Source: Deltaproteobacteria bacterium (GTDB taxonomy: Bacteria; Myxococcota_A; UBA9160; SZUA-336). From it: a stretch of DNA of 64,000 nt. Under the pieces are notes generated by a model. That model was not told the origin of the DNA, ran no database searches, and saw only the letters and a program-made list of their open reading frames with translations. Both the position numbers and the translations under genes were made by a program. The stretch lies in assembly GCA_029261895.1 (NCBI GenBank), contig JAJDAK010000064.1, positions 18,582 through 82,581 on the forward strand, in the 5' to 3' direction. Below are positions 3,001 through 27,534 of the stretch, one piece after another (the first letter of the stretch is position 1; the number at the start of each line of letters is the position of its first letter).

Positions 3001-4916
3001 CGAGTCCATAGGAATCGAATTGCTCGTCGGGATCGATTTCGTCAACGTCAAGACCACAGATACCCGCGAGTCGCTCGACCAGTAATGACTCAATGGCTGA
3101 GGTGTCCAGACCGCTGCTGTCTTGTTCAGTCGTTTGGTCGGCTGTGCTTGGTTCAGACCATTCAGCAACAATTGCCAGTTCGCTGCTGAGAAACTGGTTC
3201 CGACACAAGCGCCGTTGAATCTTGCCACTCGATGTCTTGGGAATACTGCGTGCTTTGACCAGGACGACGGCGTGGGGTGCAACGTCGTGCTCAGCGATAA
3301 TCTGCCGACGGATGAGTTGTAAAACCTCTTTGGGTTCTAATCCCTCAACGACGTTAACTTCCTGGACTACAACGAGCTTCTCTTCGTTATCGTGCTCGAT
3401 CGAAAATGTGGCACTGCAGCCTGGCCGAACTGCAGCGTGGACTGAGTCACAGCTGAATTCGATGTCTTGTGGATAGTGATTGCGCCCTCGGATGATGATT
3501 AGATCCTTGAGGCGACCTGTGATGTAGAGTTCGTCGTCGTGGAAGAATCCAAGATCGCCAGTGCGTAAAAACGTTTGGTGATTATCGGACGAAAGTCGGG
3601 CACCAAAAGTCTCTTGGCTCTCCTCGGGTCGATGCCAGTAGCCGGAAGAGACACTCGGTCCAGAAAGCCAAATCTCACCAATTCGGTCCGGCGCTACGGG
3701 TTCGTGAGATTCAGGGTCTACGACCTCCGCCCGCAGGTCGTCCCGCGGCTGACCTTGCCCAACAAGTACGCGAGCTACCGCATTCGCATCGGCGATCTTG
3801 ATCTCATTGTTCTCAAGCGCATCTGCGTCCAAGCGAGCAACACCGAGCGGGGCATCTAACTCGCCACCGGTCACCATGAGCGTCGCTTCGGCGAGTCCGT
3901 AGGCCGGTCGAAAGGCGTTTTGCCGAAAGCCACAATCTGCAAAGACGGAGGCAAAACGTTCAAGTGTTTGATGACGAACAGGCTCTGAACCCACCATCGC
4001 GACCTGCCAACTGCTCAAGTCCAATTTAGCGCGATCGTCCGCTCCAATTCGTCGTACGCAATAGTCGAACGCGAAGTTGGGGCCGCCGCTAAGGGTTCCA
4101 CGATAGTGTGAAATAGCGCGCAGCCAGCGTAGAGGTTCCTGTATGAAAGCCTCGGGTGGCATAAAGACCGAATGCCCGCCGCAATAGACCGTCTGAATCA
4201 CATTCCAGATCAAACCCAGATCATGAAAGAGGGGGACCCAGCTAACCATGACGGATCCCGGTATGCGTCCCCATGCATTTCGAAGCATCTCGGAGTTTGC
4301 AGTTAAATTGCCGTGGCTCACCACAACGCCCTTGGGTTCGCCCGTTGAGCCTGACGTGTACTGCAGGTAGGCAGGCGAGTCAGGCCGCGCTACGAAATCA
4401 AACGCATCAGCAAAGCCTTCGAGGAGGCTATCAGTGGGTAACCAAGTACAGCCTTTGAACTTAGGTGCGTTTGCTTCGATCTCATGGCTGCGAGCTGCAA
4501 GCTCCGCGTTCGTCAGGACTAGCCGTGCACCTGAGTCAACCAAGATGCTCTGCAACCGCGGCAAAGTACGCGCCGCTCGGGCCAGATTGGGAGCGGGCGT
4601 GGGTACCGCAATGGCACCGGCATAGAGACAGCCGTAGAGCGCCACGATGAACTCGATCCCCGACGGAAGGATTACTAAAACGGGTTTGCCCTGTGCCTCA
4701 TGCTTGCGCAGCTCAGCCGCAACCTGCCTGGCACGACGGTCAAGTTCCGAGTAGGAGAGATTTATTTCGCCAGTGTTGTTTTCACCGTTAGGTAGAAACG
4801 TAAACGCGATCTTATCTGCGTTCAACCGAGAGAACCTACGGAGCCTATCTACGATAGGTTCAGGATTCAGCTCTTGACCTTCCTGCTGGGGCAATTCAAA
4901 AACCTCGTCAGGCATG
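1..4916 (-). CDS. Non-ribosomal peptide synthetase, partial (C-terminal part runs off the window start). Domain order from the N-terminus is fatty acyl-AMP ligase (FAAL), carrier (T), condensation (C), adenylation (A).
   Basis: A continuous minus-strand frame with no stop between 4916 and 1 (absent from the ORF track because it is open at the window edge). The start is ATG at 4916-4914 (MPDEVFELPQQ). FAAL/AMP-binding motifs are YLQYTSGSTGEPKGVVVSHGNL and a later YTSGSTGRPKGV with GELYIGGAGLARGY and a TGDLARL-type core. The carrier motif is FDSYGLDSARAIGL. The condensation region has MHHIVSDAES (HHxxxDG-like). Confidence 0.85.
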
Positions 4917-4980
4917 TACCGTGGCAGTCAATGCGATGCGCAACATCACGTTAACTGAGTTGTTGCAACCTGATTCACCA

Positions 4981-5304: not shown

Positions 5305-6765
5305 CTAGATCAGCGTGAAGCTGTTCAGGTGAAGTTGAATACTGTGTCCGCAGGATTCTTTCGTTACAGCGTGTTGGGCGAGTTGCGGGTCGTTGGACGT
5401 GGCGATGGTTCGGCGGCCATCGGGAAGATCGCAGAGTGCGATCGTTGTTGCCGGTGCGTTGTTCATATACAACACGGTGTAGGTCGCGATCGTGGCCGGC
5501 CCCCTTGCTTCGTCTGCGAGTTCCAAGCGTGGAGTGTCGGCACAGGTGGCTTCCGTCACGTCGTCGAAATGGAATTTGCTGGTTCGCGGTTCGGTGGACC
5601 ATAGGCTTACGCCCTGTTTGGTCAGAATGCCGCTCACCGCGGTCGCCATACCCAAGCTTCCCGGATCCGCGCGTAGGACTTCGACCATTCGCGGGAGGGC
5701 TTGAAGTACGTAGTGGTTGAACGGTCCGCCTGCGAACGTCATTCCACCCGTTAGTGTCAGTGCGCGTGCCGCGGTCAGGCCGAGCTCCTGGAGTTGGACG
5801 CGAACGGCTGCAGGAAAGCAGCTATAGAGTTCGAGATGCTGGACCTCAGAGATTTCAGCAGAGATACGTCCTAACGCGGTCGTGGCCGCGTGTGCGAAAC
5901 CCGGGCATCGCTCGATTTGACGCCGGCGTGAAAGCGCACATACATCGTTGGAGTCTGCGATCGCCAGTGGAATGACCCAACGCTCGCGAGGAATACCAAA
6001 ACGCTGGGCTGTTGCGACCGAACACAGAATTAGTGCGGCGGCTTGGTTTACGTTCCATTGCGAAGCGAGCATTTTTGTATAGGGAAATGCAAGTTCGCCG
6101 CTACGCAGAATCATTTCCGCATCGACAGGTTCTTGGGTCCACGCCTGAGGGTTTGTTTGTGCGACGCGGCTATAGGCAGCCCATAGTCCGGCGAGTTCTT
6201 CCCGGTGGCGCCTTACGTCTTGGCCGGAGTTCGCACGGAGTGAGTTTTCGATCATTGCGTATTGCGTAACCGGTCCCGCCAAGCCCCTTTGAATCTCGAG
6301 CAGGTCGATCACCAGCGCGTCTGGTTTAATGAGCGAATCAGGTTTGCACGGAGCTTGCTCCGTGTTTTTCACGTTAATACCGAGACGTTTCGCTTGTTGC
6401 TCGCGATATTTCGCCTCTGCGCCAACGACGAGTGCAATCTCCGACTTACCGTTCGCAATGTCTCGAGCCGCGCGTCCGAGCAGCGTGGTCTGCAGAACGC
6501 CAACGTCTGCGATTTCTGTGCGCGCGCGAGTCGCGCCGAGTTGATCTGCGAGCAACCGACCCGGATCGGAATACGACCAGAGCCCACGTGGGATCCGGAT
6601 CGAATCCGCGTTCGTGATCAGTTCGTGAGACCCCGCATCTTTCGCGGCGGCGTCCAACGCGCTGAGCATTAACGCCAACGCTTCCCTGGCACGCGCCGGA
6701 TCGGCTTCGTACTCTTGAACGGCTGCGGCGCCCACCAGAACGGGCGTACTTGGGTCGATCGTCAT
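5305..6765 (-). CDS. Thiolase-fold (SCP-x / lipid-transfer-protein type) protein. The catalytic N-terminal Cys is not obvious.
   Basis: ORF 5305..6855 trimmed to ATG 6765 (MTIDPSTPVLVGAAAVQEY) with a GAGGGGG RBS. The N-terminus is thiolase-like, an IALVVGAEAK segment resembles the VGxEKM region, and the C-terminus has a GGMTFAGGPFNHY glycine-rich loop. No NxxCxSG motif was seen. Confidence 0.55.
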   Translation of the reverse strand: MTIDPSTPVLVGAAAVQEYEADPARAREALALMLSALDAAAKDAGSHELITNADSIRIPRGLWSYSDPGRLLADQLGATRARTEIADVGVLQTTLLGRAARDIANGKSEIALVVGAEAKYREQQAKRLGINVKNTEQAPCKPDSLIKPDALVIDLLEIQRGLAGPVTQYAMIENSLRANSGQDVRRHREELAGLWAAYSRVAQTNPQAWTQEPVDAEMILRSGELAFPYTKMLASQWNVNQAAALILCSVATAQRFGIPRERWVIPLAIADSNDVCALSRRRQIERCPGFAHAATTALGRISAEISEVQHLELYSCFPAAVRVQLQELGLTAARALTLTGGMTFAGGPFNHYVLQALPRMVEVLRADPGSLGMATAVSGILTKQGVSLWSTEPRTSKFHFDDVTEATCADTPRLELADEARGPATIATYTVLYMNNAPATTIALCDLPDGRRTIATSNDPQLAQHAVTKESCGHSIQLHLNSFTLI

Positions 6766-6888
6766 CGGGCCCCCTCGAGGTTGCGCTAGTTGGGTTCGCC
6801 ACGAAGGCGTCGATATCGATCGAGTGTACACGGCAGATAGCAGCGTTGACACCACGGTGATTCCGGCCGACCATCGCCAACCGATCGT

Positions 6889-7014: not shown

Positions 7015-10000
7015 TTAGGGAGTCTCGTCGAGCCGATCGATCAAATAGGCTCGGAGATTTTCGGGCGAAACAATCGCTTCCAATGAACCGACTTTGAGCG
7101 CGCGCTCTACTGTGTGTACGCGGTCAAATTCCGTCGCGACTTCGGCCTGCTTTTCTAGTCGTACGGCATGCTCGATAGAATCGAGTTCCTCACGCGAACT
7201 GAAAGCGCCATTAATCTTGGCCGTGCGCAGGTTTCGAATCCTCTGATCCGCGGCCATGCGTGCACGGACTTCGCGGTGAAAAACAACCGCCGCCGCAGGC
7301 CCGCCTCCGATCACCGATGCAAACGAGCCGGTGAGTGCGGTTGCACGAAGCTCGGAGTTGAGCTCGCGCGAAAACACGACGTAAGCGCCGCCGTGATAGC
7401 GGGACACTACAGTGAAGAGTAGGGGACCCTTGAAATTGACCACCGCGCGCGCGATTTCGGCACCGTACTCGAGCTGCAGCGCTCGCATGGATTCGGGCGA
7501 CCCGTCAAAGCCCGAGAGATTCGCAAGAATCACGGCAGGTCGATTACCGCTCGCAGCGTTGATCGCGCGTGCCAGTTTTTTGGAAGACAATGGGAACAGA
7601 GTGCCGCCTGACCAGGTCGACGGTCCGTCAGTGGATGCATAGCCCTCGCGTGGTAGAGGTTGACTCTCAATACCGATCAGTGAGATCGCATGTCCGCCGA
7701 GCCGTGTGTCCCAGACGATGGTGGTACCTGCGTCCTGCCAGCGGAGCCAACGTTCCAGGTAGCCTGCGTCTTGGTCCACAGTTGCGCGCATCACATCGCG
7801 CATCGCGAATGCGCATTTACGTTCCGGGTTTTTAGATGCACTGAATATATCGCCGACACGTTCAAAGCCATGGTCTGCATTAGGTTCGCACGCATACTCG
7901 GTGATGTTGCGGTCTCGAGGGTCGGCTGTTGCAGTCCGTGATGGTCGAGAGGTACCAGAAGCGACGTAGGTGAAGCGATAGTGTTCATAGAGCGTCTGAT
8001 ACGCATCGAATAAACTCCGCGCGTAGTACTGGGCTTCGCCGTTGGGGCCCATGACTCGCTCAAAACCGCCGATCGCAACCTCGTCCTCCGCCGAGACCGA
8101 TCCGGAAGCTTCCAGCGCCGCGCGTCCAGTGAGAACCATCGCACCCGCCGGCGTCATGATCAATGCGCCACGGGACCGAGAGTGCATGGTTGCGAGTGCA
8201 TTAAAGTAGCTTTGCGCGCCGACGTTCACTCCTGAAACCAAGATATGAATTGTTCCGCCAGCCTCTGTAAATTCGATGATTCGACGGACTACGCGTGCCG
8301 TCGCGTCTAAGTTTTCTGTGCCGCTATCCATAGCGATCCGAGCACCGCTGGAAATGGGCACCCATTCAACCGGCACCTCATTGCGCTCCGCCAGATCGAT
8401 TGCAGCCTGTATGCGATCGCATTCTCTTGCACTGAGCGCGCCCATGCCTTGGGTCGGATCGGAAAGGATCAGCATGCGACGAATTCCGCTGGGGAACTCC
8501 GGTGTTGGCGTGTTGATTAGTCCGACCACAACGCCTGCCGTGTTTTGCCCGTAGTTTCGATCCGCGACACTCATTAGCCGTGGCTCGGTGCTTTCAGGGT
8601 CCAGATCGTATTCCTGAAACTGGCCTGTAGGGAGGCGTACCGCGTCGGAATCCGAGCTCAACCCGTTGGCTCGTGCACCGCCCGTGAGCATACGAATGAT
8701 CTCGTAGGGATAGATGAGTCCGTGACGCCGCGCCCGAACCAATTTGCGTTCGTAATCTTGCGCAGGTTCCAAAGGCGCATGATGGACGGAGCGCGCGTAG
8801 ACCTCGGAGTGTGCGCCCGTAGGATCTGCAATGACCAATTCGATGGGACCGTCGGCCCCGTCTTGAATCGGTTGCTCGACCCGAACTACAACTTTTTCCA
8901 GCCCCAAATGACGAACCGCCGGTGCCAATCGATGGATCACCGGCTTGGTTGTTTCCGCGTCCACAGAAACCGGGGATGCAACCGCAAGAAAGATTCGGTT
9001 CCACTGCAATTGGCGACGGGGGTCTCGCTCGCCGATGACGTGGCGTAGGGTACGCGCAGCTTCAAAGAACGCGTGCTCGAACTCGGGAATCAGTAAGGTG
9101 TCGGGATCTGTCCCGCCGACGATATCCGCCAGAACAAAAATTCTTTCATCACTCGGTACCTCTTTGCTGCGTAGGTGGAAGCAGAAAAGGTCTTCGGGGG
9201 CGTCCAATCTTTCGAGGTCAAAGGCCTGTAACCGCTCGAGTCCTACGCGTGCTGCGGTTTCGGGATGTATTCCATGCAACTCCTTCTGGAGTACGACTTG
9301 TCCGTCACAGCACAAGAAGCTGAGATGTTGCGGCGCCAACTGCGCGCGCTGAAGCGTGATGCAAAGGCGTTTAAACGGGAATTCGCTATGAAGCTGATGT
9401 AGTACAGCGCTGGCGAGTTCGTCTTCTTTGATATCATGCTCGCAGTCAACGAAGAGTTCCAATGCGGTCGGTTGGATGGATTGGGCCAAGCGTCCGATCT
9501 GATTCAAGCAAGAGCTTAGTTCATCGAGTCTGGTTCGGGTCGCCCAGACCGTGCGACCATCGTCGAACTCAAAGCATTCGATGGTGGGATGAGTGTTTGC
9601 TAACAGGCTGGGACCATTGGATACGTGCGGTACATAGAGTCGGGCAACGATAGCTTCGATGGAATCCGGTCGATCGGCTCTACCCATGGCATTCTTCTCT
9701 AGCACGGGTCGATTGAAAATCGTGTATGCGGTCTCGATCGCGAGATCTGCAACAGAATCGGACACGAGGCCTCGGAGTCCAGCGATCGCGATCAACGACG
9801 CGTGGAAAGCCTGGTCGGCTTCAAGGTTGAGCCCGCTCGCCGCAAGCGCACCGAGAAGCTTGGTGATTCCTAGCACCAGACGCAGCCGCCGGTCACGGGA
9901 TTGCTGTGACGCGAGCAGGCGCAACAAACCGCGCTCTAGGCCGGCACTGGGTTCTAGTCGGGTGACGCCGTAGTGCGCAAGCGCGTGTTCAAGGAGAATC

Positions 10001-12444
10001 CGAAAGTTTGGTGAAACTCCTTCGCCAGCCGCACCGATCCGCCGCATGTACTTACGTAGATGCGCGTGGTTGGAGAAGCCCAATTCACCCTCGATCGAGG
10101 CTTGTGGGCGTTTGACGAAAAGGCGTTCGATATCGACGAATGTTTGGAGTTCATGTCGGAGTTCAGAAAGTTCCAAGCGAAATGTTTCAGGCAAGTCGTC
10201 TGGAACCTCTGCGTTCAGGATCGCGAGCAGCAGGTCGCACCGTTGGGGATTAAGATCGTATCCCATCAACACACGACGAATTTCATTTCGTGCACCATCG
10301 ATTGCGTTTAATCGATGTTCCCTTGTGTCTCCCGCCGCAGAACTGAGGTCGGGGACCAGGTCTGCGGCTTCGTCAGTGGAGCGAAAAAAAGTCTCCAGTG
10401 GATCAGGCTCCGCCGGAAATTCGATGCGTAGTTTTGAAGCTGGTTCACTGACCTCGAGAGAGTCGGTAGCATCTGGTTCGATGATTACGAGGAGATCAGT
10501 ATCGCTCACCTGTTGACCCATCTGCACGCGAACTTCTTTGACTTGACCGGCTATGGGTGACTGAACCGCAATTTCCATCTTCATGGCTTCCAAAAGACCC
10601 AATGATTGGCCAGGGACTACGTGGTCGCCCTTAGCGATATGTATTGCGGTCACGCGTGCAGGTGCTTGCGCACGGACGTAGCCCGCAAGGTCACTACCAA
10701 AACGATAGGGATGGCTTTCGACTTCTATGCGAATGCCTTGTTCAGATACGTCGTGAAGCACTCGCAGTGCACGCCCTTCACGTTCCAGTGATGCGACATT
10801 CAAATCCCGTGCAAGGAGGGTCGCGTGTACGACTTTTCCATCGAGGTATACACGGTATTTCCAGGCGCCAACTGCGAATACATCAAGCCGATATTCCTCA
10901 AGACTGTGCGTGAGCTGAATCTGTTGTCCTGTTGACGCAGGGATCCAGTTCGGGGAGAGATTGCCTGGGTCGGTAAGAAACTTTCGGCGTGCCGCGTCTC
11001 GATTTCGCTGATACGAGAGAATCGCCGCCGCGATCAGGGCATCGCTAAGGTAGCGATCGGACCCGTCTCGAAGCGCGGGATTCTGGTCCAGCCACTCCGT
11101 GTCAAACCGACCTGCACGAAAGGTCGGATGATCAAGTAAATGGATCAAAAACCCCTTGTTACTTGTGCCGCCCTGAACCACGAGTTCGAAGTCTTTCAGT
11201 CCAGCGAGCAAGCGTGCGTGCGCTTCCTCGCGTGTTTGTCCGCTGGCAATGACTTTGGCGATCAGCGAATCGAATGCTGCGGGTATCTCGGCACCACCGA
11301 CGATGTCGGTGTCAATGCGTATCCCGGGACCGTGGCACGGTGCGAAGTGAACGATCCGGCCGGGTGAAGGTTGAAATCCCGTGGCCGGGTCCTCTGCGCA
11401 GACTCGAGCTTCCAGCGCGAATTTTCCAGGCGCGTTAGGTTGAATCGAAAGCACTTCGCCTTGTGCAATACGAATCTGTTGATGGATCAGGTCGATGCCC
11501 GTAACGGCTTCGGTGATTCCGTGTTCAACTTGGAGTCGTGGATTGACTTCGAGGAAGTAGATGTGGTTTTCAGAGACCAGGAATTCAACGGTTCCAACGC
11601 CGCGGTACTCTGCCTGGGTTGCGAGTCGAACAGCGAGATCTTCGATCTCCTGTAGCAGTTCAGTGGGTAGATTAGGAGGCGGAGTTTCTTCCAATACCTT
11701 CTGATGTCGTCGTTGAACCGAGCAGTCCCGGCAACCGAGTGCGATCACGTGGCCATACATATCCGCCACGATTTGCACTTCGATATGTCGACCGTGTGGA
11801 AGTTTCTTCTCGATAAAGAGCGTATCGTCGCCGAACGCTGACTTGGCTTCAGCGGCGGCGGAGCGAAACGCATCGGGGAGTTCTGCGGGCGTCTCCACAA
11901 TGCGGATGCCGCGACCGCCACCGCCCGCGCTTGCTTTGACGACCAACGGAAAGCCCACGCGTTTTGCGCAATCTCGAGCCGCATCCAGGGTATCAACGCG
12001 ACTACCGCTCCAGGGAATGACTGGAACGCCAGCGGCTACAGCGAGTTGCTTCGCACAGATTTTGTCACCGAGGCTGCGCATTACATCAGCGGGAGGCCCT
12101 AAAAAACAAATGCCAGTCTGGTCCAGGCGGGAGACAAACTCTGGATCTTCGGATAGAAATCCCCAACCAGGCCATACGGAATCTGCACCGACGTCTTGGA
12201 TGGCGCGAATCAAACCGTCGTAGTCGAGGTAGGCTTGAACGGGTCCGTCTGGGGAGGGGAGTCGTACGGCCCGATCCGCATGACGCACAAAGCTCGCGTC
12301 GCGGTCGACGTCGGTATAGAACGCAACGCACTCGAGCTCCACGTTTTCCAGTTCGCGAAACGTTTTGACCGCACGGATACAGCGCATCGCGGGCTCGCTA
12401 CGATTGACAATCGCCAGACGTCTTAAGTTACGACGATGTGTCAT
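7015..12444 (-). CDS. Single-polypeptide multidomain acyl-CoA carboxylase (biotin carboxylase, biotin carboxyl carrier and carboxyltransferase domains), about 1809 aa
   Basis: ORF 7015..12525 trimmed to ATG 12444 (MTHRRNLRRLAIVNRSEPAMRCIRA). BC domain: ATP-grasp with EVNPRLQVEH. Biotinyl-lysine motif: EAMKMEI. C-terminal half: carboxyltransferase N and C subdomains (SGGARI, LIMTPAGAMVLTG). Confidence 0.85.
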   Translation of the reverse strand: MTHRRNLRRLAIVNRSEPAMRCIRAVKTFRELENVELECVAFYTDVDRDASFVRHADRAVRLPSPDGPVQAYLDYDGLIRAIQDVGADSVWPGWGFLSEDPEFVSRLDQTGICFLGPPADVMRSLGDKICAKQLAVAAGVPVIPWSGSRVDTLDAARDCAKRVGFPLVVKASAGGGGRGIRIVETPAELPDAFRSAAAEAKSAFGDDTLFIEKKLPHGRHIEVQIVADMYGHVIALGCRDCSVQRRHQKVLEETPPPNLPTELLQEIEDLAVRLATQAEYRGVGTVEFLVSENHIYFLEVNPRLQVEHGITEAVTGIDLIHQQIRIAQGEVLSIQPNAPGKFALEARVCAEDPATGFQPSPGRIVHFAPCHGPGIRIDTDIVGGAEIPAAFDSLIAKVIASGQTREEAHARLLAGLKDFELVVQGGTSNKGFLIHLLDHPTFRAGRFDTEWLDQNPALRDGSDRYLSDALIAAAILSYQRNRDAARRKFLTDPGNLSPNWIPASTGQQIQLTHSLEEYRLDVFAVGAWKYRVYLDGKVVHATLLARDLNVASLEREGRALRVLHDVSEQGIRIEVESHPYRFGSDLAGYVRAQAPARVTAIHIAKGDHVVPGQSLGLLEAMKMEIAVQSPIAGQVKEVRVQMGQQVSDTDLLVIIEPDATDSLEVSEPASKLRIEFPAEPDPLETFFRSTDEAADLVPDLSSAAGDTREHRLNAIDGARNEIRRVLMGYDLNPQRCDLLLAILNAEVPDDLPETFRLELSELRHELQTFVDIERLFVKRPQASIEGELGFSNHAHLRKYMRRIGAAGEGVSPNFRILLEHALAHYGVTRLEPSAGLERGLLRLLASQQSRDRRLRLVLGITKLLGALAASGLNLEADQAFHASLIAIAGLRGLVSDSVADLAIETAYTIFNRPVLEKNAMGRADRPDSIEAIVARLYVPHVSNGPSLLANTHPTIECFEFDDGRTVWATRTRLDELSSCLNQIGRLAQSIQPTALELFVDCEHDIKEDELASAVLHQLHSEFPFKRLCITLQRAQLAPQHLSFLCCDGQVVLQKELHGIHPETAARVGLERLQAFDLERLDAPEDLFCFHLRSKEVPSDERIFVLADIVGGTDPDTLLIPEFEHAFFEAARTLRHVIGERDPRRQLQWNRIFLAVASPVSVDAETTKPVIHRLAPAVRHLGLEKVVVRVEQPIQDGADGPIELVIADPTGAHSEVYARSVHHAPLEPAQDYERKLVRARRHGLIYPYEIIRMLTGGARANGLSSDSDAVRLPTGQFQEYDLDPESTEPRLMSVADRNYGQNTAGVVVGLINTPTPEFPSGIRRMLILSDPTQGMGALSARECDRIQAAIDLAERNEVPVEWVPISSGARIAMDSGTENLDATARVVRRIIEFTEAGGTIHILVSGVNVGAQSYFNALATMHSRSRGALIMTPAGAMVLTGRAALEASGSVSAEDEVAIGGFERVMGPNGEAQYYARSLFDAYQTLYEHYRFTYVASGTSRPSRTATADPRDRNITEYACEPNADHGFERVGDIFSASKNPERKCAFAMRDVMRATVDQDAGYLERWLRWQDAGTTIVWDTRLGGHAISLIGIESQPLPREGYASTDGPSTWSGGTLFPLSSKKLARAINAASGNRPAVILANLSGFDGSPESMRALQLEYGAEIARAVVNFKGPLLFTVVSRYHGGAYVVFSRELNSELRATALTGSFASVIGGGPAAAVVFHREVRARMAADQRIRNLRTAKINGAFSSREELDSIEHAVRLEKQAEVATEFDRVHTVERALKVGSLEAIVSPENLRAYLIDRLDETP

Positions 12445-13004
12445 GCACAGGCAAAAGCCACGAAGCGGCCGTGATGGGAAAGAGAAACGGGAAGACCGCG
12501 CTGTAGATCGCCAATGTGTAGCCACGGCATCCGGCGCTTTCGCTCGATCGTGATATTCGAAGCAGCGATGCCCCAGCGCTTGGCCAGCTGTTCGCGGACG
12601 AGACGGCGTACCTCGATACTCTGGGCATCGCTGTCGAGTGCGAAGTCAAAACAACGCAGAGCATGGAAGGGTTCGGTTTCAGACCGCGTCTGGGCAATCG
12701 CGTGAACGTAGTCCGGTCCGTTAAAAAAATGGACGGTGAGGTCGTGTTGCTGATGGATTAGGTTTGCCTTATGGCCGCGGATGGGTCCGCAGACGAAACA
12801 GCGCGGAGAAAATGGCAGTCGTGAGTCCATACGGCGTAATGCTTTGAATGCGGCTTCCTTGGCTGCCCAAAACATCCACCGGGCACGCATGGGGTCGGTC
12901 GACTGTTCAATCATGTCCCGCTCCGAATCTGCGAATACCCGCGAGTCGAATCTCGGATGCGTCTGTTTCGCGCTGGATAGGTCGACCAGGTCATTACCGA
13001 TCAT
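12441..13004 (-). CDS. 4-prime-phosphopantetheinyl transferase, Sfp/EntD type
   Basis: Motifs GNDLVDL and WAAKEAAFKA (PPTase motifs 2 and 3). Start chosen at MIGNDLVDL. Overlaps the carboxylase start by 4 nt and the upstream acyltransferase stop. Confidence 0.75.
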   Translation of the reverse strand: MIGNDLVDLSSAKQTHPRFDSRVFADSERDMIEQSTDPMRARWMFWAAKEAAFKALRRMDSRLPFSPRCFVCGPIRGHKANLIHQQHDLTVHFFNGPDYVHAIAQTRSETEPFHALRCFDFALDSDAQSIEVRRLVREQLAKRWGIAASNITIERKRRMPWLHIGDLQRGLPVSLSHHGRFVAFACA

Positions 13005-13737
13005 CGAAGTATTCTCGCTCCATGTGTGCAAGCCGCCCCACGATTTGCTGGGAGATATCCCGTGCCGCGCGCAGGCCACTACTTTCTGTTTTAGGGTCGA
13101 AGAGTTCTATTATGACTGAGAAGCGTTCATTTCGGTGCGGCAGGTTGGAATAGGTTCCCTGTCCATCGCCGCGTAAATAGACACAAAGCACGCGACAGCG
13201 GGGAATTGAATCGATCAAGCCGCCGACGCCGTAGGCAGCGTTCGTTACGTCTATGCGACCGCTGCGGCTGCGTCCCCCTTCGGGGAATACCATGCCGACC
13301 TCACCGTTTTCGACGCAGAAACCAAATCGACTCATCGTGGCCTGAACTTCCTTTCGAGGCCCGCCACGTTGAATGGGTATGCACTTGAATAGGTAGGATA
13401 GGACGCGAAGCGCGATGCCGTGAGAGAAGTTTGTGCGCTCTGGAACGTTCCATGGCAACGCATGGAAGTTCCTGAGGTACCATCCCGGAGACCCTAGAGC
13501 CCAAGCGATGATGGCGGAATCCACCATCGTCAAATGATTCGGGCAGATCATCAACGGAGCGTCATTGGAGTCGAGGATCCGCCGATATTCGCGTCGCAGG
13601 TGGACTTGATCCCGAATCTGATATCCGAAGCCAAAACGCATGAGCATGATTACCGAAGGAACCGTCAGCGGTGCGAATATTAGGCTGATCCAACGCTGGA
13701 GTTGTATGCGTAGATATGTGCCTGCAGAAACGTTCAC
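12994..13737 (-). CDS. PlsC-family (lysophospholipid/glycerol-3-phosphate-type) acyltransferase
   Basis: HxxxxD motif NHLTMVD and acceptor-binding motif VFPEGGRS. GTG start forms a GTGA overlap with the ACP stop. Confidence 0.8.
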   Translation of the reverse strand: MNVSAGTYLRIQLQRWISLIFAPLTVPSVIMLMRFGFGYQIRDQVHLRREYRRILDSNDAPLMICPNHLTMVDSAIIAWALGSPGWYLRNFHALPWNVPERTNFSHGIALRVLSYLFKCIPIQRGGPRKEVQATMSRFGFCVENGEVGMVFPEGGRSRSGRIDVTNAAYGVGGLIDSIPRCRVLCVYLRGDGQGTYSNLPHRNERFSVIIELFDPKTESSGLRAARDISQQIVGRLAHMEREYFDDR

Positions 13738-13985
13738 GCGCCGAGCTTCGACTCGATCAGTTGTACCGCATTCTCGACGGTTTCCACGAGATCGATGTCT
13801 TCATCCTCGATCTGGATGTCGAACACATCTTCAAACTCGAGGATGATGTCTACGAGTCGTGCGGAGTTTATTTTTAGGTCATCGAGCAAGTGCGTCTTGA
13901 GGGAAATCTTATCGCGCGCGTCTTCGTTTCGAATAAACGGCGCAAGGATGGAAATGATTTTGTCAAAGATATCTTGTCGATTCAT
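13734..13985 (-). CDS. Acyl carrier protein
   Basis: 83 aa, acidic, with DDLKINSARLVDII (DSL-type phosphopantetheine attachment Ser). RBS AAGGAGG lies 7 nt upstream. Confidence 0.85.
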   Translation of the reverse strand: MNRQDIFDKIISILAPFIRNEDARDKISLKTHLLDDLKINSARLVDIILEFEDVFDIQIEDEDIDLVETVENAVQLIESKLGA

Positions 13986-14012
13986 GAATGGCCTCCTTAG
14001 GGTGAAGTGAAT

Positions 14013-15293
14013 CTAGGCGTTCTGCCAATTACCGATCATCAAACACGCATTCACATCGCCGAATCCGAACCCAGCTTTCGCTGCGATCCGTAGTTCGGGT
14101 GCGTCGCGCGTCGTACGGGGTATTGAATGCGAATACCTTTCGATCTCAGGATGAACATCCTCGCAGTTGATCGAAGGATGAATGAAACCTTCGTAGAGCA
14201 TTTGGACGGTAGCAATCGATTCAATCGCACCCGCCGCCCCGAGACTGTGACCGATCATCGATTTGGTGGAGGTGATCGGAGGCAGGTGATCGGGCGTCTG
14301 CTCCAACGCTGTCGCCCAAGCCGCGACTTCCTTTGGATCTGCTCCCGTGGCGGTGAGGTGACCGTTGATGAGACCTACTTCCGATCCGCTGATTCCCGCA
14401 TCTTGCAATGCTGCACGGATACAACGCACAACACCGTTGGGATTAGGTGCGCTCATACTGCCGCCACCACGGTGTCCACCACAGTTGAGCGCGGTTCCTA
14501 GGATCTCCGCGTAGATTCGTGCACCGCGTTGAACCGCGCTCTCGTAGGACTCGAGCAAGAGTACTCCGGCGCCCGCGCTGGGGACGAATCCACCCGCGGA
14601 AGCACTCATGGGTCGGGAAGCTTCTTCTGGGCGATCGTTGAATCCTCGACAGAGCACACGCATGGAATCAAAACCAGCATAGATGTAATGGCTTGCAGCT
14701 TCGGCGCCGCCGCAGAGCATGCGTTCCGCGAGTCCCTGGCGAATTCGATTCGTGCCTTCGGCGATAGCTTCGGTACCTGTGCTACACGCGCTCGAATTGG
14801 TGGTGACTTGGTTCCCGAGTGCAAGCAACCCGGAGATCCGTGCGGAGATACCACTTGCCATGACCTGTTCGACGACGGTACTTCCGAGACGACGAATCTT
14901 GCCCGCATTCGTGAGGGGTACGATGCGTTCGGCGATCGTGTCCATGCCACCAATGCCTGTTCCCAAAATGGCACCTGTATCCCAGTCGACGCGGTCGCTT
15001 TCGGCCTCAGGTCGTTTGAATCCCGCATCTTCCCAGGCATCCACCGCTGCGATACTTGCCAGACGATGACTTGAATTCATGGCGAGCAACTGCTCGCGAC
15101 TGAAATAACGTGATGCGATCTCATCGACACCTTGAGGAATGCCTGCGACCTGGCAACCGAAGCCGAGTTCAGCCATGATAGGATTGAGTCGAATTCCTGA
15201 CTTGCCTTCGCGGAGTGACTGCGTAAACGCGTGTAGATCGGATCCGTTGGCCGCGACGACGCCCATACCCGTGATGACGACCCGCCGTCTCAT
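14013..15293 (-). CDS. Beta-ketoacyl-ACP synthase I/II (FabB/FabF family)
   Basis: N-terminal VVITGMGVV. An internal segment reads TNSSACSTGTEAIAEG in the supplied translation, and the text Cys-His-His triad is HLTATGADPKE ... IGHSLGAAG. 426 aa. Confidence 0.85.
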   Translation of the reverse strand: MRRRVVITGMGVVAANGSDLHAFTQSLREGKSGIRLNPIMAELGFGCQVAGIPQGVDEIASRYFSREQLLAMNSSHRLASIAAVDAWEDAGFKRPEAESDRVDWDTGAILGTGIGGMDTIAERIVPLTNAGKIRRLGSTVVEQVMASGISARISGLLALGNQVTTNSSACSTGTEAIAEGTNRIRQGLAERMLCGGAEAASHYIYAGFDSMRVLCRGFNDRPEEASRPMSASAGGFVPSAGAGVLLLESYESAVQRGARIYAEILGTALNCGGHRGGGSMSAPNPNGVVRCIRAALQDAGISGSEVGLINGHLTATGADPKEVAAWATALEQTPDHLPPITSTKSMIGHSLGAAGAIESIATVQMLYEGFIHPSINCEDVHPEIERYSHSIPRTTRDAPELRIAAKAGFGFGDVNACLMIGNWQNA

Positions 15294-15727
15294 AGGGGAA
15301 CTCCGGTTCCAGAAAGCGTACCTGCACAGACCAGCGAACCACCGGGGAGGCGCATTTCGGCTGAGACGCGGAGCGTCCGCCGTCGATAAAAGACCTTCTT
15401 CGCCGAGGTCGTGACCTCAGTGCCGGGTAGCACGATTCCTGCGAACTCTACGTCCGCATGGGAGAAGAGGGTTGTAATCTTGGCGTCGGGATCCTCACGG
15501 TGCAATAGATAGAGTCCGAGCGCGACCACTGCCGCTTGCGCCATGGTTTCAATGAGAATGACGCCGGGTGTAATCGGCCGACTTGGGAAATGTCCGCGAT
15601 AGAAATCGGCATCTTCACGATAGCGATAAGTAGCGACGACATGATCTTCGTCGAGTTCTAGGATGCGATCGATAAAGCGAAACGGTTCTTGCTGTGGGAT
15701 CGCGGCCAGTATTTCTTCTTTTGTCAT
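15290..15727 (-). CDS. fabZ: 3-hydroxyacyl-ACP dehydratase, FabZ-like hotdog
   Basis: GHFPSRPITPGVILIETMAQ motif. ATGA overlaps on both flanks. Confidence 0.8.
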   Translation of the reverse strand: MTKEEILAAIPQQEPFRFIDRILELDEDHVVATYRYREDADFYRGHFPSRPITPGVILIETMAQAAVVALGLYLLHREDPDAKITTLFSHADVEFAGIVLPGTEVTTSAKKVFYRRRTLRVSAEMRLPGGSLVCAGTLSGTGVPL

Positions 15728-16320
15728 GACTCTCGCACGAGCCTCCCGCCGCGAGAATGTTTTGAAGGCCGTGGATAGTCGGGATAATCGATATTTCGAA
15801 ACGTTCCGACCTTGGCACGTTGAACGCTGTAAATCGGTTCGTCATCGACAAAGAGGGTCGCGTCGCCAAGAACCACTGACGCTCCGACGTTCGTCAGCTC
15901 GGTATAGCGCCGCACATCGACTTCGTAACGTATGAGTCGATCGTGCGGACGAACCTGTCCAAAGAATTCAACCTCGCCACAGCCCAACGCACGTCCTGCC
16001 CCAAGACCACCGCTCCAAGCACAGAAGAAACCAAGCAGTTGCCAGATTCCATCGACGCCCAAGCAACCCGGCTGGACAGGATCGCTCGCAAAGTGACATT
16101 GAAAGAACCAATCATCGAGCCTGACGTCGTACTCGGCGACGATTCGACCGCGTGTTTTCTGTCGATCGATCTCTAAGATGCGGTGAATCATCAGCATCGG
16201 AGGTAAGGGGAGGCGCGCTTTGAATTCGGCAGGAGCGTCAGAGATGAGCGTCCCATTTGCGAAGGCAAGCAGTTCCAATTGCGTGAAACTTTTGCGGTCT
16301 CGAAATTCGACGTAGTTCAT
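15724..16320 (-). CDS. fabA: 3-hydroxydecanoyl-ACP dehydratase/isomerase, FabA-like
   Basis: FFQCHFASDPVQPGCLGVDG matches the FabA active-site region. Start chosen at MNYVEF (ATGA overlap with the KAS III stop). The ORF extends to 16356 if the first Met is used. Confidence 0.75.
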   Translation of the reverse strand: MNYVEFRDRKSFTQLELLAFANGTLISDAPAEFKARLPLPPMLMIHRILEIDRQKTRGRIVAEYDVRLDDWFFQCHFASDPVQPGCLGVDGIWQLLGFFCAWSGGLGAGRALGCGEVEFFGQVRPHDRLIRYEVDVRRYTELTNVGASVVLGDATLFVDDEPIYSVQRAKVGTFRNIDYPDYPRPSKHSRGGRLVRES

Positions 16321-17312
16321 CGCGAATCCTCGGAACGGAGTAGGTAACTTGCCCAAGTCAAGCCTGCGCCTACGCCTGCGACGGCAATATCATCGATGGT
16401 GTCCCATTTTTCCCAACGCATCGAGATGACCGATGCGGAGCTGGCGCAGCCGGTGTTACCGAAAAACTCGACATTGCTGTGATGCTGTGACGTTGAAACT
16501 CCGGCAGCATGGCAAACGGATTCGAGCATACGTAGGTTGGCCTGGTGTCCGACGAAGTGGAAAGATCGGCCGGCGGTCTCATGCTGCTCGCGCAATGAAC
16601 GCACCGCTTGACTCATACGCCTGATTCCGAATGCCTGAACGGTTCGGCCTTCTTGATAGAAGTGGCCGATACGCGGCACGACCACTTTATCTGCGGCGCT
16701 GGGCTTAGATTGGAGCGACGGATTGAGCACACGAAATCGACCGGGGCGCCGGGTAGAGATCACCGCGGCCGCGGCACCATCGCCCCAGAGTACAGACGAC
16801 GAGCGATCCGCGTAGTCGACGGTCTTGGTGAGGGTATCGACTGCGACCAATAGGAGATACTCGGGAAGTGCATCGCTGCGCATCATCGACAGGAGATATA
16901 GCTGGGCGTAGAAACTGGTGCAGGCTGACCGTACGTCAAAACTCGGTACGTCGAGCCCTAGGGCTTGCGCGATATTGCAGGCTTCAGCGGGAGAGGCGGT
17001 ATCTGTCGCAGAGCTACCAGCGATGACCATGCCGATGGCTTCTTTCGGAACGGCTGCCCGTCGGAGCGCGTGCTCCGCGGCCCGTGCGCCAAGTTCTGCG
17101 TTCGATAGCGTCGCAGCTTCAATCGCTGCGCGTGGGTTTTGGTTTCGCGTTTCCCGAATGTAGTCGAGAGGCAAAACAGTTCGGCGTGAGCGTATCCCAA
17201 CGCGTTCGAGGATCCACTCATTCGAAGTTCCAATATCGAGCGATTCGAGGAAGGCGTTGGTTATTTCGTTTTCAGGATGGCAATGGCCGAGGCCGTGAAT
17301 GAAGGTATTCAA
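16317..17312 (-). CDS. fabH: 3-oxoacyl-ACP synthase III (FabH-like)
   Basis: Thiolase-fold KAS III with GNTGCASSA and C/H/N-type residues. Probable TTG start (MNTFIHGLGH) overlapping the upstream stop as TTGA. The alternative is ATG at 17372, which overlaps by 64 nt. Confidence 0.7.
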   Translation of the reverse strand: MNTFIHGLGHCHPENEITNAFLESLDIGTSNEWILERVGIRSRRTVLPLDYIRETRNQNPRAAIEAATLSNAELGARAAEHALRRAAVPKEAIGMVIAGSSATDTASPAEACNIAQALGLDVPSFDVRSACTSFYAQLYLLSMMRSDALPEYLLLVAVDTLTKTVDYADRSSSVLWGDGAAAAVISTRRPGRFRVLNPSLQSKPSAADKVVVPRIGHFYQEGRTVQAFGIRRMSQAVRSLREQHETAGRSFHFVGHQANLRMLESVCHAAGVSTSQHHSNVEFFGNTGCASSASVISMRWEKWDTIDDIAVAGVGAGLTWASYLLRSEDSR

Positions 17313-18256
17313 CGGGTCGCTCCGGAAATATGTTCGCCGCCGTCGACCCGGATGATTTCGCCGTTGATCCATGCGGCGTCATCCTGAGCGAGCAAGTGGA
17401 TTACGTTTGCAACATCGCGCGTCGTCGTGAGTCGACCGAATGGATTACGCGTCCTGGCTTGCGCTTTGAGGTGGTCGCTCCCCGGGATGGCTTTCAGTGC
17501 AGGTGTCTCCGTAATACCTGCTTGAATAATGTTGGTTCGGATACCGTATGGCGCAAATTCAAGCGCCATTGAGCGCGCAAGTGCTTCGAGCGCGACTTTG
17601 GCAGCCGATACTGCGGCATAGCCTTTCCAGGCGACCTTGTTTCCCTCGCTCGTAAGTCCGAAGACCCGTGCGTCGTCTGCAAAGAGATTCCTCGCGTGGA
17701 GACTTTGCACCCAACCCAACAAACTTGTTCCCATACTGTGGATGGTGCGACCGAAGTCTTCCTCGTCGAGAAACGAACGGGTTGGGTATTCGGGGGCTGT
17801 GGCCAAAGCATGTAGCCCGTCATGTCCTGCATTGAAAGATTCGTTGGCGAGGTCTTCCAGTCGGGAGGGCTCAACTCCGAGCCGTTGGGCCAGTTCATTT
17901 CGACTCGTATTGAGACGGGGTTTCTCTGCGACCAGCAGCTTCAAGTTTCCAAATGCGATTGAGTGCAGGAACAGCCTCACCCGACCCTGCGATCCGAGCT
18001 CAGACGTCAATTGATCCAGCACTTCTTCACGCTTCTCGGGGTTGAGTGCGTCGAGGTTAAGACAGAGAACTCGATGGCCGTGGCTGCGAACCTTTTCAAA
18101 CTCCGGTTCGATCTGTGCCATTGCGCCACGACGATCGCGGTGAATCAGGCAAAGATTCATGCCGTTTTCAGCCAGTTTATGCGCGGTCGCCAGGCCAAAG
18201 CCGCTCGAGCCGCCAAGGATCAACGCCCATTGATTCGGACCAAAGCGATCTACCAC
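17309..18256 (-). CDS. Enoyl-ACP reductase of the FabI/FabL/FabV SDR lineage
   Basis: GGSSGFGLATA nucleotide-binding loop, Y-x6-K catalytic motif (YAAVSAAK) and GIRTNIIQAG. GTG start. Confidence 0.7.
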   Translation of the reverse strand: MVDRFGPNQWALILGGSSGFGLATAHKLAENGMNLCLIHRDRRGAMAQIEPEFEKVRSHGHRVLCLNLDALNPEKREEVLDQLTSELGSQGRVRLFLHSIAFGNLKLLVAEKPRLNTSRNELAQRLGVEPSRLEDLANESFNAGHDGLHALATAPEYPTRSFLDEEDFGRTIHSMGTSLLGWVQSLHARNLFADDARVFGLTSEGNKVAWKGYAAVSAAKVALEALARSMALEFAPYGIRTNIIQAGITETPALKAIPGSDHLKAQARTRNPFGRLTTTRDVANVIHLLAQDDAAWINGEIIRVDGGEHISGATR

Positions 18257-27453: not shown

Positions 27454-27534
27454 GCCATACGCATCGGAATTCAAGCCTTTGGAGCTGTAGCTGCTTGCAA
27501 AGATCGCGTGGCGGCGTTGGCGTAGAAGAGGGCT

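What the first reader, a model, noticed from the sequence alone, without database searches (positions are those of the whole stretch)
13734..18256. Cassette has both FabA and FabZ but no FabD (malonyl-CoA:ACP transacylase) or FabG (ketoreductase)
Two different hotdog dehydratases sit side by side (the FabA active-site signature FFQCHFASDPVQPGCLG and the FabZ-type GHFPSRPITPGV). Yet no acyltransferase of the FabD family and no classical Y-x3-K ketoreductase are encoded anywhere in the cassette. Either these steps are borrowed from the housekeeping pathway, or a non-canonical enzyme in the locus covers them (the thiolase-fold protein or the Y-x6-K reductase).
Basis: seen in the sequence. Interest (0 to 1): 0.5.

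Follow-up and report, generated by a model that had tools for sequence, protein, structure and literature searches.

The report
Accessory fatty-acid synthase lacking FabD and FabG
This is a compact operon for a second fatty-acid-making machine, shared by hundreds of uncultured bacterial species; the two "missing" enzymes are almost certainly borrowed from the cell's main pathway, because one is nearly always absent from this operon family and the other is absent from about half of its members.

Summary
On the minus strand a FabA-type gene (15724-16320) and a FabZ-type gene (15290-15727) overlap by ATGA. Neither the cassette nor the 64-kb window holds a FabD. The cassette's only SDR (17309-18256) is a FabL-like enoyl-ACP reductase with Y-x6-K, not a ketoreductase.

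Two corrections. The 1836-aa ORF (7015-12525) is a single-chain biotin carboxylase-BCCP-carboxyltransferase, not an NRPS. The real NRPS (FAAL-T-C-A) lies at 2-4927.

The cassette is ENR-FabH-FabA-FabZ-KAS-ACP-acyltransferase-PPTase-carboxylase. It recurs in MAGs labelled Myxococcota, Gemmatimonadota, Acidobacteriota and Binatia. The ENR query found relatives in 470 matched stretches of the species-genome collection.

Of 70 loci spanning FabH to FabZ, 34 carry a FabG-type KR (Y-x3-K) between FabA and FabZ, and 32, including the window and its closest relatives, do not. FabD is adjacent in only one locus.

Best reading: an uncharacterised accessory type II FAS that takes FabD, and in this clade FabG, in trans. 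This is ordinary logic for accessory type II systems. The thiolase-like gene and the NRPS are not conserved with the cassette. Nothing indicates that the ENR doubles as a KR. The rest of the genome could not be searched.

The parts
17309..18256 (-). FabL-like enoyl-ACP reductase (315 aa) with a roughly 60-aa helical insertion (about residues 105-165). First gene of the operon.
   Evidence: Pfam adh_short_C2 147 bits. Best NCBIfam model is FabL NF005975, 123 bits, below its cut-off of 328. Best PDB match by sequence and by fold is B. subtilis FabL 3oic/3oid. Y213-x6-K220 is invariant in 22 homologues, with no Tyr at K-4. AF2 model pLDDT 84.5.
16317..17312 (-). FabH-like KAS III (331 aa from a TTG that overlaps the ENR stop; the maximal ORF reaches 17372).
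   Evidence: Pfam ACP_syn_III and ACP_syn_III_C. NF006829 195.7 bits, cut-off 249. Cys/His/Asn motifs (ACTSF, GHQAN, GNTG) are visible in the translation. TTGA overlap with the ENR stop. Relatives are 331 aa.
15724..16320 (-). FabA-type 3-hydroxyacyl-ACP dehydratase/isomerase homologue (about 198 aa; the maximal ORF starts at 16356).
   Evidence: NF003509 200.3 bits, above its cut-off of 124; TIGR01749 172.9 bits, below 238. 41% identity to E. coli FabA over the full length, with His (CHF) and Asp (LGVD) conserved. The same dyad is present in 66 of 66 relatives.
15290..15727 (-). FabZ-type 3-hydroxyacyl-ACP dehydratase homologue (145 aa). Its ATG overlaps the FabA stop.
   Evidence: PF07977 58.4 bits. 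FabZ models score 78.8 bits, below their cut-offs. 30% identity to E. coli FabZ, with His (GHFP) and Glu (IETMAQ) present. ATGA junction.
14013..15293 (-). Elongating beta-ketoacyl-ACP synthase (426 aa), slightly nearer FabB than FabF.
   Evidence: Pfam ketoacyl-synt N and C domains. FabF model 302 bits and FabB model 261 bits, both below their cut-offs. 33.5% identity to E. coli FabB against 31.2% to FabF. Cys/His/His motifs are visible.
13734..13985 (-). Dedicated, divergent acyl carrier protein (83 aa).
   Evidence: PP-binding 23.4 bits. ACP models reach about 50 bits, below their cut-offs. 26% identity to E. coli AcpP. The Ser sits in an N-S-A context instead of D-S-L in 63 of 66 loci.
12994..13737 (-). 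PlsC-type (HX4D) acyltransferase (247 aa). Presumed to off-load the product from the ACP.
   Evidence: Pfam Acyltransferase PF01553, 39 bits. Weak match to the acyltransferase part of acyl-ACP:phospholipid O-acyltransferase. The NHLT-x2-D motif is conserved in all 65 relatives examined.
12441..13079 (-). 4'-phosphopantetheinyl transferase (at most 212 aa; the true start is probably near 13004).
   Evidence: Pfam ACPS 41.3 bits plus a weak AASDHPPT_N match. Syntenic in relatives.
7015..12525 (-). Single-chain biotin-dependent acyl-CoA carboxylase, BC-BCCP-linker-CT. 1836 aa as the maximal ORF; about 1809 aa from the ATG at 12444 that overlaps the PPTase stop. This is not an NRPS.
   Evidence: Pfam Biotin_carb_N, CPSase_L_D2 and Biotin_carb_C (residues 34-481), Biotin_lipoyl (625-682) and Carboxyl_trans (1347-1831). 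No AT, KR, C or A domains. PDB hits are biotin carboxylases and MCC/PCC alpha subunits. It ends the cassette in Myxococcota-type relatives.
5305..6855 (-). Thiolase-like protein type 1 (TLP1). Neighbour of the cassette, not a conserved member.
   Evidence: Pfam TLP1_add_C; NF006103 338.7 bits, below its cut-off. PDB 4egv, E 5.7e-47. No homologue downstream of the carboxylase in 61 relatives.
2..4927 (-). NRPS that starts with a fatty-acyl-AMP-ligase-like domain (FAAL-T-C-A...) and runs off the left end of the window. Neighbour of the cassette, not conserved with it.
   Evidence: Pfam AMP-binding x2, AMP-dom_DIP2-like, PP-binding, Condensation and AMP-binding_C. Among 61 relatives there are only two distant AMP-binding hits, both on the opposite strand.

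Best explanation
The region is a translationally coupled operon for an accessory type II fatty-acid synthase of a widespread, uncharacterised family.

Shown here:
- It encodes its own carboxylase, PPTase, divergent ACP, FabH-like primer, FabB/F-like elongating KAS, FabZ-type and FabA-type dehydratases, a FabL-type enoyl reductase and a PlsC-type acyltransferase.
- It encodes no FabD and no ketoreductase.

Inferred mechanism:
- The carboxylase supplies malonyl-CoA.
- The cell's housekeeping FabD loads it onto the PPTase-activated cassette ACP.
- FabH-like and KAS enzymes condense.
- The housekeeping FabG (or another unlinked FabG-type SDR) reduces the 3-keto group. Two dehydratases and an enoyl reductase would have no substrate otherwise.
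- FabZ and FabA dehydrate, with FabA plus the FabB-like KAS possibly introducing a cis double bond.
- The FabL-like enzyme reduces the enoyl intermediate.
- The acyltransferase moves the finished chain from the ACP to a lipid acceptor.

The KR is a dispensable module of this cassette family: present between FabA and FabZ in about half of the members, and absent in the clade that holds the window.
For: -
- Operon structure: 4-nt overlaps ENR/FabH (TTGA) and FabA/FabZ (ATGA). The same tight packing is seen in relatives.
The labels are Myxococcota, Gemmatimonadota/Longimicrobiales, Vicinamibacteria, Thermoanaerobaculia, Binatia and 'Spirochaetales' MAGs.
- Gene order is the same in relatives.
- KR is variable: 34 loci FabA+KR, 32 FabA only (window included), 3 KR only, 1 neither.
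- The inserted KR is FabG-like: TIGR01830 252 bits, Y-x3-K in all 50 examined.
- KR-less loci sit in at least three places of an ENR neighbour-joining tree. The window's two closest ENR relatives (72% and 70% identity) are also KR-less. The state is therefore inherited and stable, not an assembly gap.
- FabD is adjacent in only 1 cassette locus, L076.
- Accessory rather than primary: the ACP is 26% identical to AcpP and carries N-S-A instead of D-S-L. FabH, FabZ, KAS, ACP and ENR all score below NCBIfam equivalog cut-offs.
- Precedents for borrowing. The rhizobial acpXL-fabZXL-fabF1XL-fabF2XL-lpxXL cluster has a dedicated ACP, KS, DH and acyltransferase only (PMC5613085). For type II PKSs, PMC7949117 describes malonyl loading either by a malonyl-CoA:ACP transacylase or by self-malonylation as an open debate. 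That type II PKS clusters usually lack such a transacylase and use the fatty-acid FabD is general knowledge.
Against: - No fabD or fabG could be shown elsewhere in this genome.
- No experiment or paper on this cassette was found.
- ENR-KR pairs occur alone at the same chromosomal position where a relative has the full cassette. This hints that these reductases may serve general fatty-acid synthesis, so the accessory/primary boundary is not clean.
- One ENR position (269) correlates with having a KR in cis. This is unexplained.
Confidence: 0.68

Rival explanations
1. The cassette is the organism's primary fatty-acid synthase, and fabD and fabG are simply scattered elsewhere, much as fabA, fabB, fabI and fabZ are scattered in E. 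coli. The practical answer to the finding is the same (both genes lie outside the cassette), but there would then be no second FAS.
For: - Cassette proteins are very strongly conserved across phyla: ENR is 63-72% identical.
- L076 has fabD directly upstream, giving a complete set.
- ENR-KR pairs persist alone in the same genomic context, as expected for essential housekeeping reductases.
Against: - The ACP lacks the near-universal D-S-L motif and is only 26% identical to AcpP.
- Most components score below NCBIfam equivalog cut-offs.
- A private PPTase, a private carboxylase and an off-loading acyltransferase are hallmarks of accessory systems.
- FabA and KR come and go between relatives, which is unexpected for an essential pathway.
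Confidence: 0.17
2. A non-canonical cassette enzyme covers the missing steps. The insertion-bearing Y-x6-K reductase would reduce both the 3-keto and the enoyl intermediates. Malonyl loading would be done by ACP self-malonylation, the FabH-like enzyme or the thiolase-like TLP1.
For: - The ENR carries a conserved roughly 60-aa insertion of unknown role, with an invariant Tyr157.
- ENR position 269 differs between KR-plus and KR-minus loci.
- Self-malonylation of type II ACPs has been reported, though it is disputed (PMC7949117).
Against: - The same ENR, with the same motif and insertion, is present where a FabG-type KR is encoded next to it, so the insertion is not a substitute for the KR.
- No catalytic-site difference separates KR-minus from KR-plus ENRs. 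The discriminating columns mostly follow phylogeny.
- There is no Tyr at K-4.
- TLP1 is absent from all 61 relatives.
- Fold search cannot separate ENR from KR among SDRs, so it adds no support.
Confidence: 0.07
3. The KR-less cassette is a decaying remnant that no longer works.
For: A step that is logically required (keto reduction) is not encoded in the cassette.
Against: - All nine ORFs are intact and tightly coupled.
- Catalytic residues are retained.
- The KR-less order is conserved in 32 loci from different clades and phyla, with clean FabA-FabZ junctions: the FabH-to-FabZ spacing is 593-649 nt.
Confidence: 0.03

Closest known systems
E. coli-type dissociated FAS II with the FabA/FabB anaerobic unsaturated-fatty-acid branch
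   Same: - The same enzyme families and the same logic of having both a FabZ (general dehydratase) and a FabA (His/Asp dehydratase-isomerase type) next to a FabB-like KAS.
- FabA is 41% identical to E. coli FabA.
   Different: - All genes sit in one operon, together with a private single-chain carboxylase, a PPTase and a PlsC-type acyltransferase.
- The ACP has N-S-A instead of D-S-L.
- The ENR is FabL-like with an insertion, rather than FabI.
- FabD is absent, and in this clade FabG as well.
- Isomerase activity has not been tested.
Rhizobial acpXL-fabZXL-fabF1XL-fabF2XL-lpxXL cluster (very-long-chain fatty acid of lipid A)
   Same: - An accessory type II system with a dedicated ACP, KS, hotdog dehydratase and an acyltransferase that off-loads from the special ACP.
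- The five genes listed for that cluster include no FabD, FabG or enoyl reductase (PMC5613085). That the missing steps come from the main FAS is my inference.
   Different: - The present cassette also has FabH, FabA, an ENR, a PPTase and a carboxylase.
- Its acyltransferase is PlsC-type, not LpxXL.
- There is no sequence-level orthology.
- Its product is unknown.
Bacillus subtilis FabL (enoyl-ACP reductase III, PDB 3oic/3oid)
   Same: - Best sequence match (98 bits) and best fold match.
- Y-x6-K aligned residue for residue.
- Gly-rich N-terminal dinucleotide-binding motif.
   Different: - About 24% identity.
- A roughly 60-residue three-helix insertion after strand 4.
- Scores far below the FabL equivalog cut-off (123 against 328 bits).
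- Cofactor and substrate have not been tested.
Aryl-polyene / flexirubin type II clusters
   Same: - Accessory type II KS/ACP/hotdog DH/KR/lysophospholipid-type acyltransferase sets that lack FabD.
- Faint ApeI/ApeP-like Pfam hits on the FabZ-like protein.
- The relatives' KR scores 196 bits on the FlxB model.
   Different: - An enoyl reductase is present here, so a saturated or mono-unsaturated chain is expected rather than a polyene.
- No CLF, ammonia-lyase, LolA-like or MMPL genes.
- All matches are below the family thresholds.

Membership tests
FabA (3-hydroxydecanoyl-ACP dehydratase/isomerase) | Hotdog fold with a catalytic His70/Asp84 dyad (E. coli numbering) | tested here: met
   CHF and LGVD align to E. 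coli FabA His70 and Asp84. The dyad is present in 66 of 66 relatives.
FabA (3-hydroxydecanoyl-ACP dehydratase/isomerase) | Score above the curated family thresholds | tested here: inconclusive
   NF003509 200.3 bits, above its cut-off of 124. TIGR01749 172.9 bits, below its cut-off of 238.15.
FabA (3-hydroxydecanoyl-ACP dehydratase/isomerase) | trans-2 to cis-3 decenoyl-ACP isomerase activity | not testable with these tools
   Needs an enzyme assay or complementation of an E. coli fabA mutant.
FabZ | Hotdog fold with a His/Glu dyad, and a score above the equivalog cut-off | tested here: inconclusive
   GHFP His and IETMAQ Glu are present and aligned. The 78.8-bit score is below the cut-offs of 113 and 155.
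FabG (3-oxoacyl-ACP reductase, classical SDR) | A cassette ORF with the classical SDR catalytic Tyr-x3-Lys | tested here: not met
   The only SDR has Y-x6-K with Val at K-4 and no Y-x3-K in its sequence. A profile of 43 cassette KRs finds no orthologue in the window. Relatives' KRs do have YTM-x-K.
FabD (malonyl-CoA:ACP transacylase) | An Acyl_transf_1 domain anywhere in the cassette or window, free-standing or fused | tested here: not met
   No Pfam hit in any ORF, including the 1836-aa carboxylase and the visible 1642 aa of the NRPS. tblastn best E 0.34. Six-frame profile search best E 6.6. The unseen part of the NRPS is untestable.
FabL/FabI-type enoyl-ACP reductase | SDR fold with the Tyr-x6-Lys catalytic spacing | tested here: met
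   Y213/K220 are invariant and align to the FabL Y-x6-K. The top fold hit is FabL 3oid, though the margin over FabG-type SDRs is small.
FabL/FabI-type enoyl-ACP reductase | Score above the FabL or FabI equivalog cut-off | tested here: not met
   FabL NF005975 123 bits against 328. FabI models 81 bits against about 300-337. It works like an ENR by motif but is not a member of the curated FabL equivalog.
Complete, self-sufficient type II FAS | All of ACC, FabD, FabH, FabG, FabZ/A, ENR, KAS and ACP encoded together | tested here: not met
   FabD and FabG are lacking. Only relative L076 has the full set.

The most novel reading that the evidence does not exclude
The cassette family itself may be an undescribed, phylum-spanning 'secondary lipid synthase'. 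It would be a portable type II FAS with a private single-chain carboxylase, an N-S-A ACP, an insertion-bearing FabL-like reductase and a PlsC-type off-loading enzyme, making a special (possibly cis-unsaturated) acyl chain for membrane lipids. Its FabA and KR modules would be gained and lost between lineages. In this window it may have been coupled to a FAAL-initiated NRPS to make a lipopeptide. The more radical version, in which KR-less cassettes need no FabG because the insertion-bearing reductase does both reductions, is not excluded either. I put that version at about 0.05.
Probability: 0.45. Interest if true: 0.55.

Novelty: new variant of a known kind. Interest (0 to 1): 0.38.

Why it matters
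The missing FabD and FabG are not a puzzle in themselves: accessory type II systems routinely borrow them. What matters more is the comparative result. The same ten-gene fatty-acid cassette recurs in hundreds of uncultured species of several phyla, with no paper describing it in the library I searched. Its ketoreductase and FabA genes behave as optional modules. This gives a natural experiment on how far dedicated and housekeeping FAS components are interchangeable. It also points to an unknown lipid product in abundant soil and marine lineages. For annotation, it shows that the long ORF is a carboxylase rather than an NRPS, and that the Y-x6-K SDR should be called an enoyl reductase.

Tried and rejected
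- Exact-sequence lookup of the window's ENR, to get the rest of the contig, failed twice. The cluster lookup gave no accession or organism name.
- Fold comparison of the ENR model with the PDB puts FabL first, but FabG-type SDRs follow within one order of magnitude of E-value. Fold does not discriminate; the catalytic motif spacing and the sequence profile do.
- A hidden FabD or KR domain in the long ORF or in the NRPS: none found.
- TLP1 or the NRPS as conserved cassette members: rejected. There were 0 TLP1 hits in 61 relatives and only two distant AMP-binding hits, both on the opposite strand.
- Neofunctionalisation of the ENR in KR-less cassettes: 16 columns discriminate, but they mostly track phylogeny. 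Only position 269 keeps some correlation, and no catalytic residue is involved.
- The SDR at 37224-37925 as the missing KR: it is a generic SDR (best FabG model 172.8 against a cut-off of 288). It lies 19 kb away on the other strand next to a P450, and nothing links it to the cassette.
- Three literature searches for this gene set found no description.
- Promoter and terminator scans were uninformative: counts were at or below shuffled expectation.
The conclusions drawn from them are backed independently by Pfam, NCBIfam and PDB searches.

Full report
**What is at the coordinates**

The minus strand from 18256 down to about 7015 carries a tightly packed gene row. Pfam and NCBIfam scans assign the genes as follows:

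| Coordinates | Assignment | Key evidence |
|---|---|---|
| 17309-18256 | SDR of the enoyl-reductase type | adh_short_C2; best NCBIfam model FabL |
| 16317-17312 | FabH-like KAS III | |
| 15724-16320 | FabA-type dehydratase | NF003509 200 bits, above cut-off 124 |
| 15290-15727 | FabZ-type dehydratase | 78.8 bits, below cut-offs |
| 14013-15293 | Elongating KAS | |
| 13734-13985 | ACP | |
| 12994-13737 | PlsC-type HX4D acyltransferase | |
| 12441-13079 | Phosphopantetheinyl transferase | |
| 7015-12525 | Single-chain biotin carboxylase-BCCP-carboxyltransferase | |

Gene junctions are 4-nt overlaps. The ENR stop and the FabH start form TTGA. The FabA stop and the FabZ start form ATGA. The row is therefore one translationally coupled operon, and nothing can hide between FabA and FabZ.

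The long ORF is not an NRPS. It has Biotin_carb_N, ATP-grasp, Biotin_carb_C, Biotin_lipoyl and Carboxyl_trans domains, and its PDB relatives are biotin carboxylases. The real NRPS is a separate ORF at 2-4927 that runs off the left end. Its visible 1642 residues read FAAL-like adenylation, T, C, A. Between the two lies a thiolase-like protein type 1 (5305-6855; PDB 4egv).

**Are FabD and FabG really absent?**

Yes, as far as the window goes.
- No Acyl_transf_1 or additional KR domain appears in any of the eleven ORFs.
- tblastn with E. coli FabD finds nothing: best E 0.34.
- A FabD profile run with filters off against all six frames of the 64 kb gives a best E of 6.6.
- A profile of 43 cassette-type KRs from relatives hits only the ENR itself (60.6 bits) and an SDR at 37218-37922 on the other strand (55.9 bits). 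Both are at generic SDR level.
- That distant SDR sits beside a P450. Its best FabG model scores 172.8 bits, below the cut-off of 288.

**What is the Y-x6-K reductase?**

- Twenty-two homologues (66-72% identical to the window protein) keep Y213 and K220 invariant.
- A profile of them finds B. subtilis FabL (3oic) as the best solved relative. The FabL Y-x6-K aligns residue for residue. Classical SDRs align their catalytic Tyr to Val216.
- An AlphaFold model (pLDDT 84.5) matches FabL 3oid best. FabG-type SDRs follow closely, so fold alone does not decide.
- The protein has a conserved three-helix insertion of about 60 residues (about 105-165).
- It is best called a FabL-like enoyl-ACP reductase. 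It falls far below the FabL equivalog cut-off (123 against 328 bits).

**Relatives**

The ENR family is large: 6892 proteins with E ≤ 1e-5 among the 8000 candidates scored, and the top 120 are all 66-72% identical. The 80 loci kept are all MAGs, labelled Myxococcota/'Deltaproteobacteria', Gemmatimonadota/Longimicrobiales, Vicinamibacteria, Thermoanaerobaculia, Binatia and 'Spirochaetales'. A second sample came from metagenome contigs, using the carboxylase C-terminus as query.

Mapping all cassette proteins onto these loci gives a conserved order: ENR-FabH-FabA-(KR)-FabZ-KAS-ACP-AT-PPTase-carboxylase. Of the 70 loci that span FabH to FabZ:

| Content between FabH and FabZ | Loci |
|---|---|
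| FabA + KR (KR lies between FabA and FabZ) | 34 |
| FabA only (includes the window) | 32 |
| KR only | 3 |
| Neither | 1 |

- The FabH-to-FabZ spacing is 593-649 nt in FabA-only loci, so there is no pseudogene remnant there.
- The inserted KR is FabG-like: TIGR01830 252 bits. It has a classical YTM-x-K in all 50 examined.
- In a neighbour-joining tree of the ENR, KR-less loci fall in at least three places (no bootstrap).
- The window's two closest ENR relatives (72% and 70% identity) are KR-less with the same overlapping junctions.
- Longimicrobiales-type loci also lack the carboxylase.
- FabD is adjacent in a single cassette locus, L076 (TIGR00128 220 bits).

**Interpretation**

Two dehydratases and an enoyl reductase need a 3-hydroxyacyl intermediate, so a ketoreductase activity is logically required. 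Relatives that differ only by a FabG gene at a fixed position show that the family uses a canonical FabG-type enzyme. They also show that it tolerates having this enzyme encoded elsewhere. FabD is almost never in cis.

The simplest mechanism is that the housekeeping FabD, and in this clade FabG, serve the cassette ACP. There are precedents. The five-gene rhizobial acpXL cluster, as listed in PMC5613085, has no FabD, FabG or ENR. For type II PKSs, PMC7949117 reports a debate over whether malonyl loading needs a transacylase or occurs by self-malonylation. That type II PKS clusters usually recruit the fatty-acid FabD is general knowledge.

I regard the cassette as accessory for three reasons:
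- Its ACP is only 26% identical to AcpP and carries N-S-A in place of D-S-L in 63 of 66 loci.
- Most components fall below equivalog cut-offs.
- It brings its own PPTase, carboxylase and off-loading acyltransferase.

The FabA (His/Asp dyad, 41% identical to E. coli FabA) and a KAS slightly closer to FabB than to FabF suggest a cis-unsaturated product. This is inference only.

**Rivals**

*Primary FAS.* The cassette could be the primary FAS with dispersed fabD and fabG. This is supported by the strong conservation and by ENR-KR pairs that persist alone at the same chromosomal position where relative L001 has the whole cassette. It is opposed by the aberrant ACP and the patchy FabA and KR content.

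*Dual-function reductase or other non-canonical substitutes.* These are not supported.
- The same ENR, insertion included, accompanies a cis KR in half of the loci.
- Columns that separate KR-minus from KR-plus ENRs mostly follow phylogeny. None is catalytic. Position 269 is an unexplained exception.
- TLP1 is absent from all 61 relatives that extend at least 1.5 kb beyond the carboxylase.

*Decay.* This is unlikely, given intact, coupled ORFs and retained catalytic residues.

**TLP1 and NRPS neighbours**

They are specific to this window's lineage. A FAAL-initiated NRPS directly downstream of a fatty-acid cassette suggests a lipopeptide. The link is not conserved, and the gaps (159 nt and about 377 nt) allow separate transcription. 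I leave it as a possibility.

**Limits**

- The rest of the genome could not be examined.
- No publication on this cassette was found.
- The tree is unsupported by bootstrap.
- The E. coli reference sequences were recalled from memory. Pfam, NCBIfam and PDB results agree with them.

**Verdict**

The missing genes are ordinary for accessory type II systems. The moderately interesting part is the uncharacterised, widely distributed cassette family with optional KR and FabA modules.

Noticed in passing
window 7015-12525 (-): A single-chain BC-BCCP-linker-CT carboxylase of about 1800 aa, with a roughly 650-aa central region that has no Pfam match. 583 relatives were confirmed in metagenome contigs. 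Many of them (about 40% identity) stand outside any FAS cassette.
   Followed up: partly
window 17309-18256 (-), residues about 105-165: A conserved three-helix insertion of about 60 aa in the FabL-like reductase, with invariant Tyr157 and a conserved LDEEDF stretch. Its role is unknown.
   Followed up: partly
window 13734-13985 (-): The cassette ACP carries its phosphopantetheine Ser in a (V/I)-N-S-A-R context instead of the usual D-S-L. This holds in 63 of 66 related loci.
   Followed up: yes
L163/L164 10001-11667; L018 9986-11685; compare L001 10001-20945: In some Myxococcota MAGs only the ENR and the FabG-like KR remain as an adjacent pair. They sit behind the same DinG-like RNase_T/helicase gene that precedes the full cassette in L001, and the other eight genes are missing.
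   Followed up: partly
ENR alignment, window residue 269: This position is Leu in most loci with a KR in cis and almost never Leu in KR-less loci, even inside the mixed clade. It may reflect co-adaptation or phylogeny.
   Followed up: partly
L167 7112-7882; L005 7340-8056; L007 7381-8103: Several KR-less cassettes have an unrelated-looking SDR (32-33% identity to the cassette KR) about 2 kb upstream on the same strand. The window has none.
   Followed up: no
L076 6367-7221: The only cassette locus with a fabD gene (TIGR00128 220 bits) directly upstream of the ENR, which gives a complete FAS set.
   Followed up: partly
window 2-4927 (-) and 5305-6855 (-): A FAAL-T-C-A NRPS that runs off the window, with a TLP1 thiolase-like gene directly downstream of the FAS cassette. 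A lipopeptide link is possible, but the pair is not conserved in relatives.
   Followed up: partly
window 20116-20814 (+) and 20964-22145 (+): A secreted protein with a C-terminal PEP-CTERM sorting signal (VPEPSTWALLGLGLGGLGLSARRRKRRP), followed by a second signal-peptide protein.
   Followed up: no
window 24673-27474 (-): A CHASE2-GAF-HisKA-HATPase-receiver hybrid histidine kinase. It is followed by two large ORFs (27535-29424 and 29425-31332) with no Pfam hit or only a faint one.
   Followed up: no
window 35921-39130: Cytochrome P450 (-), classical SDR (+, 37224-37925) and a C69-family peptidase (-). This is the only other SDR in the window.
   Followed up: partly
L098 572-11434; L024, L066, L092: Cassette variants without FabA, and in L098 without either FabA or KR. 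FabA is therefore also an optional module.
   Followed up: partly
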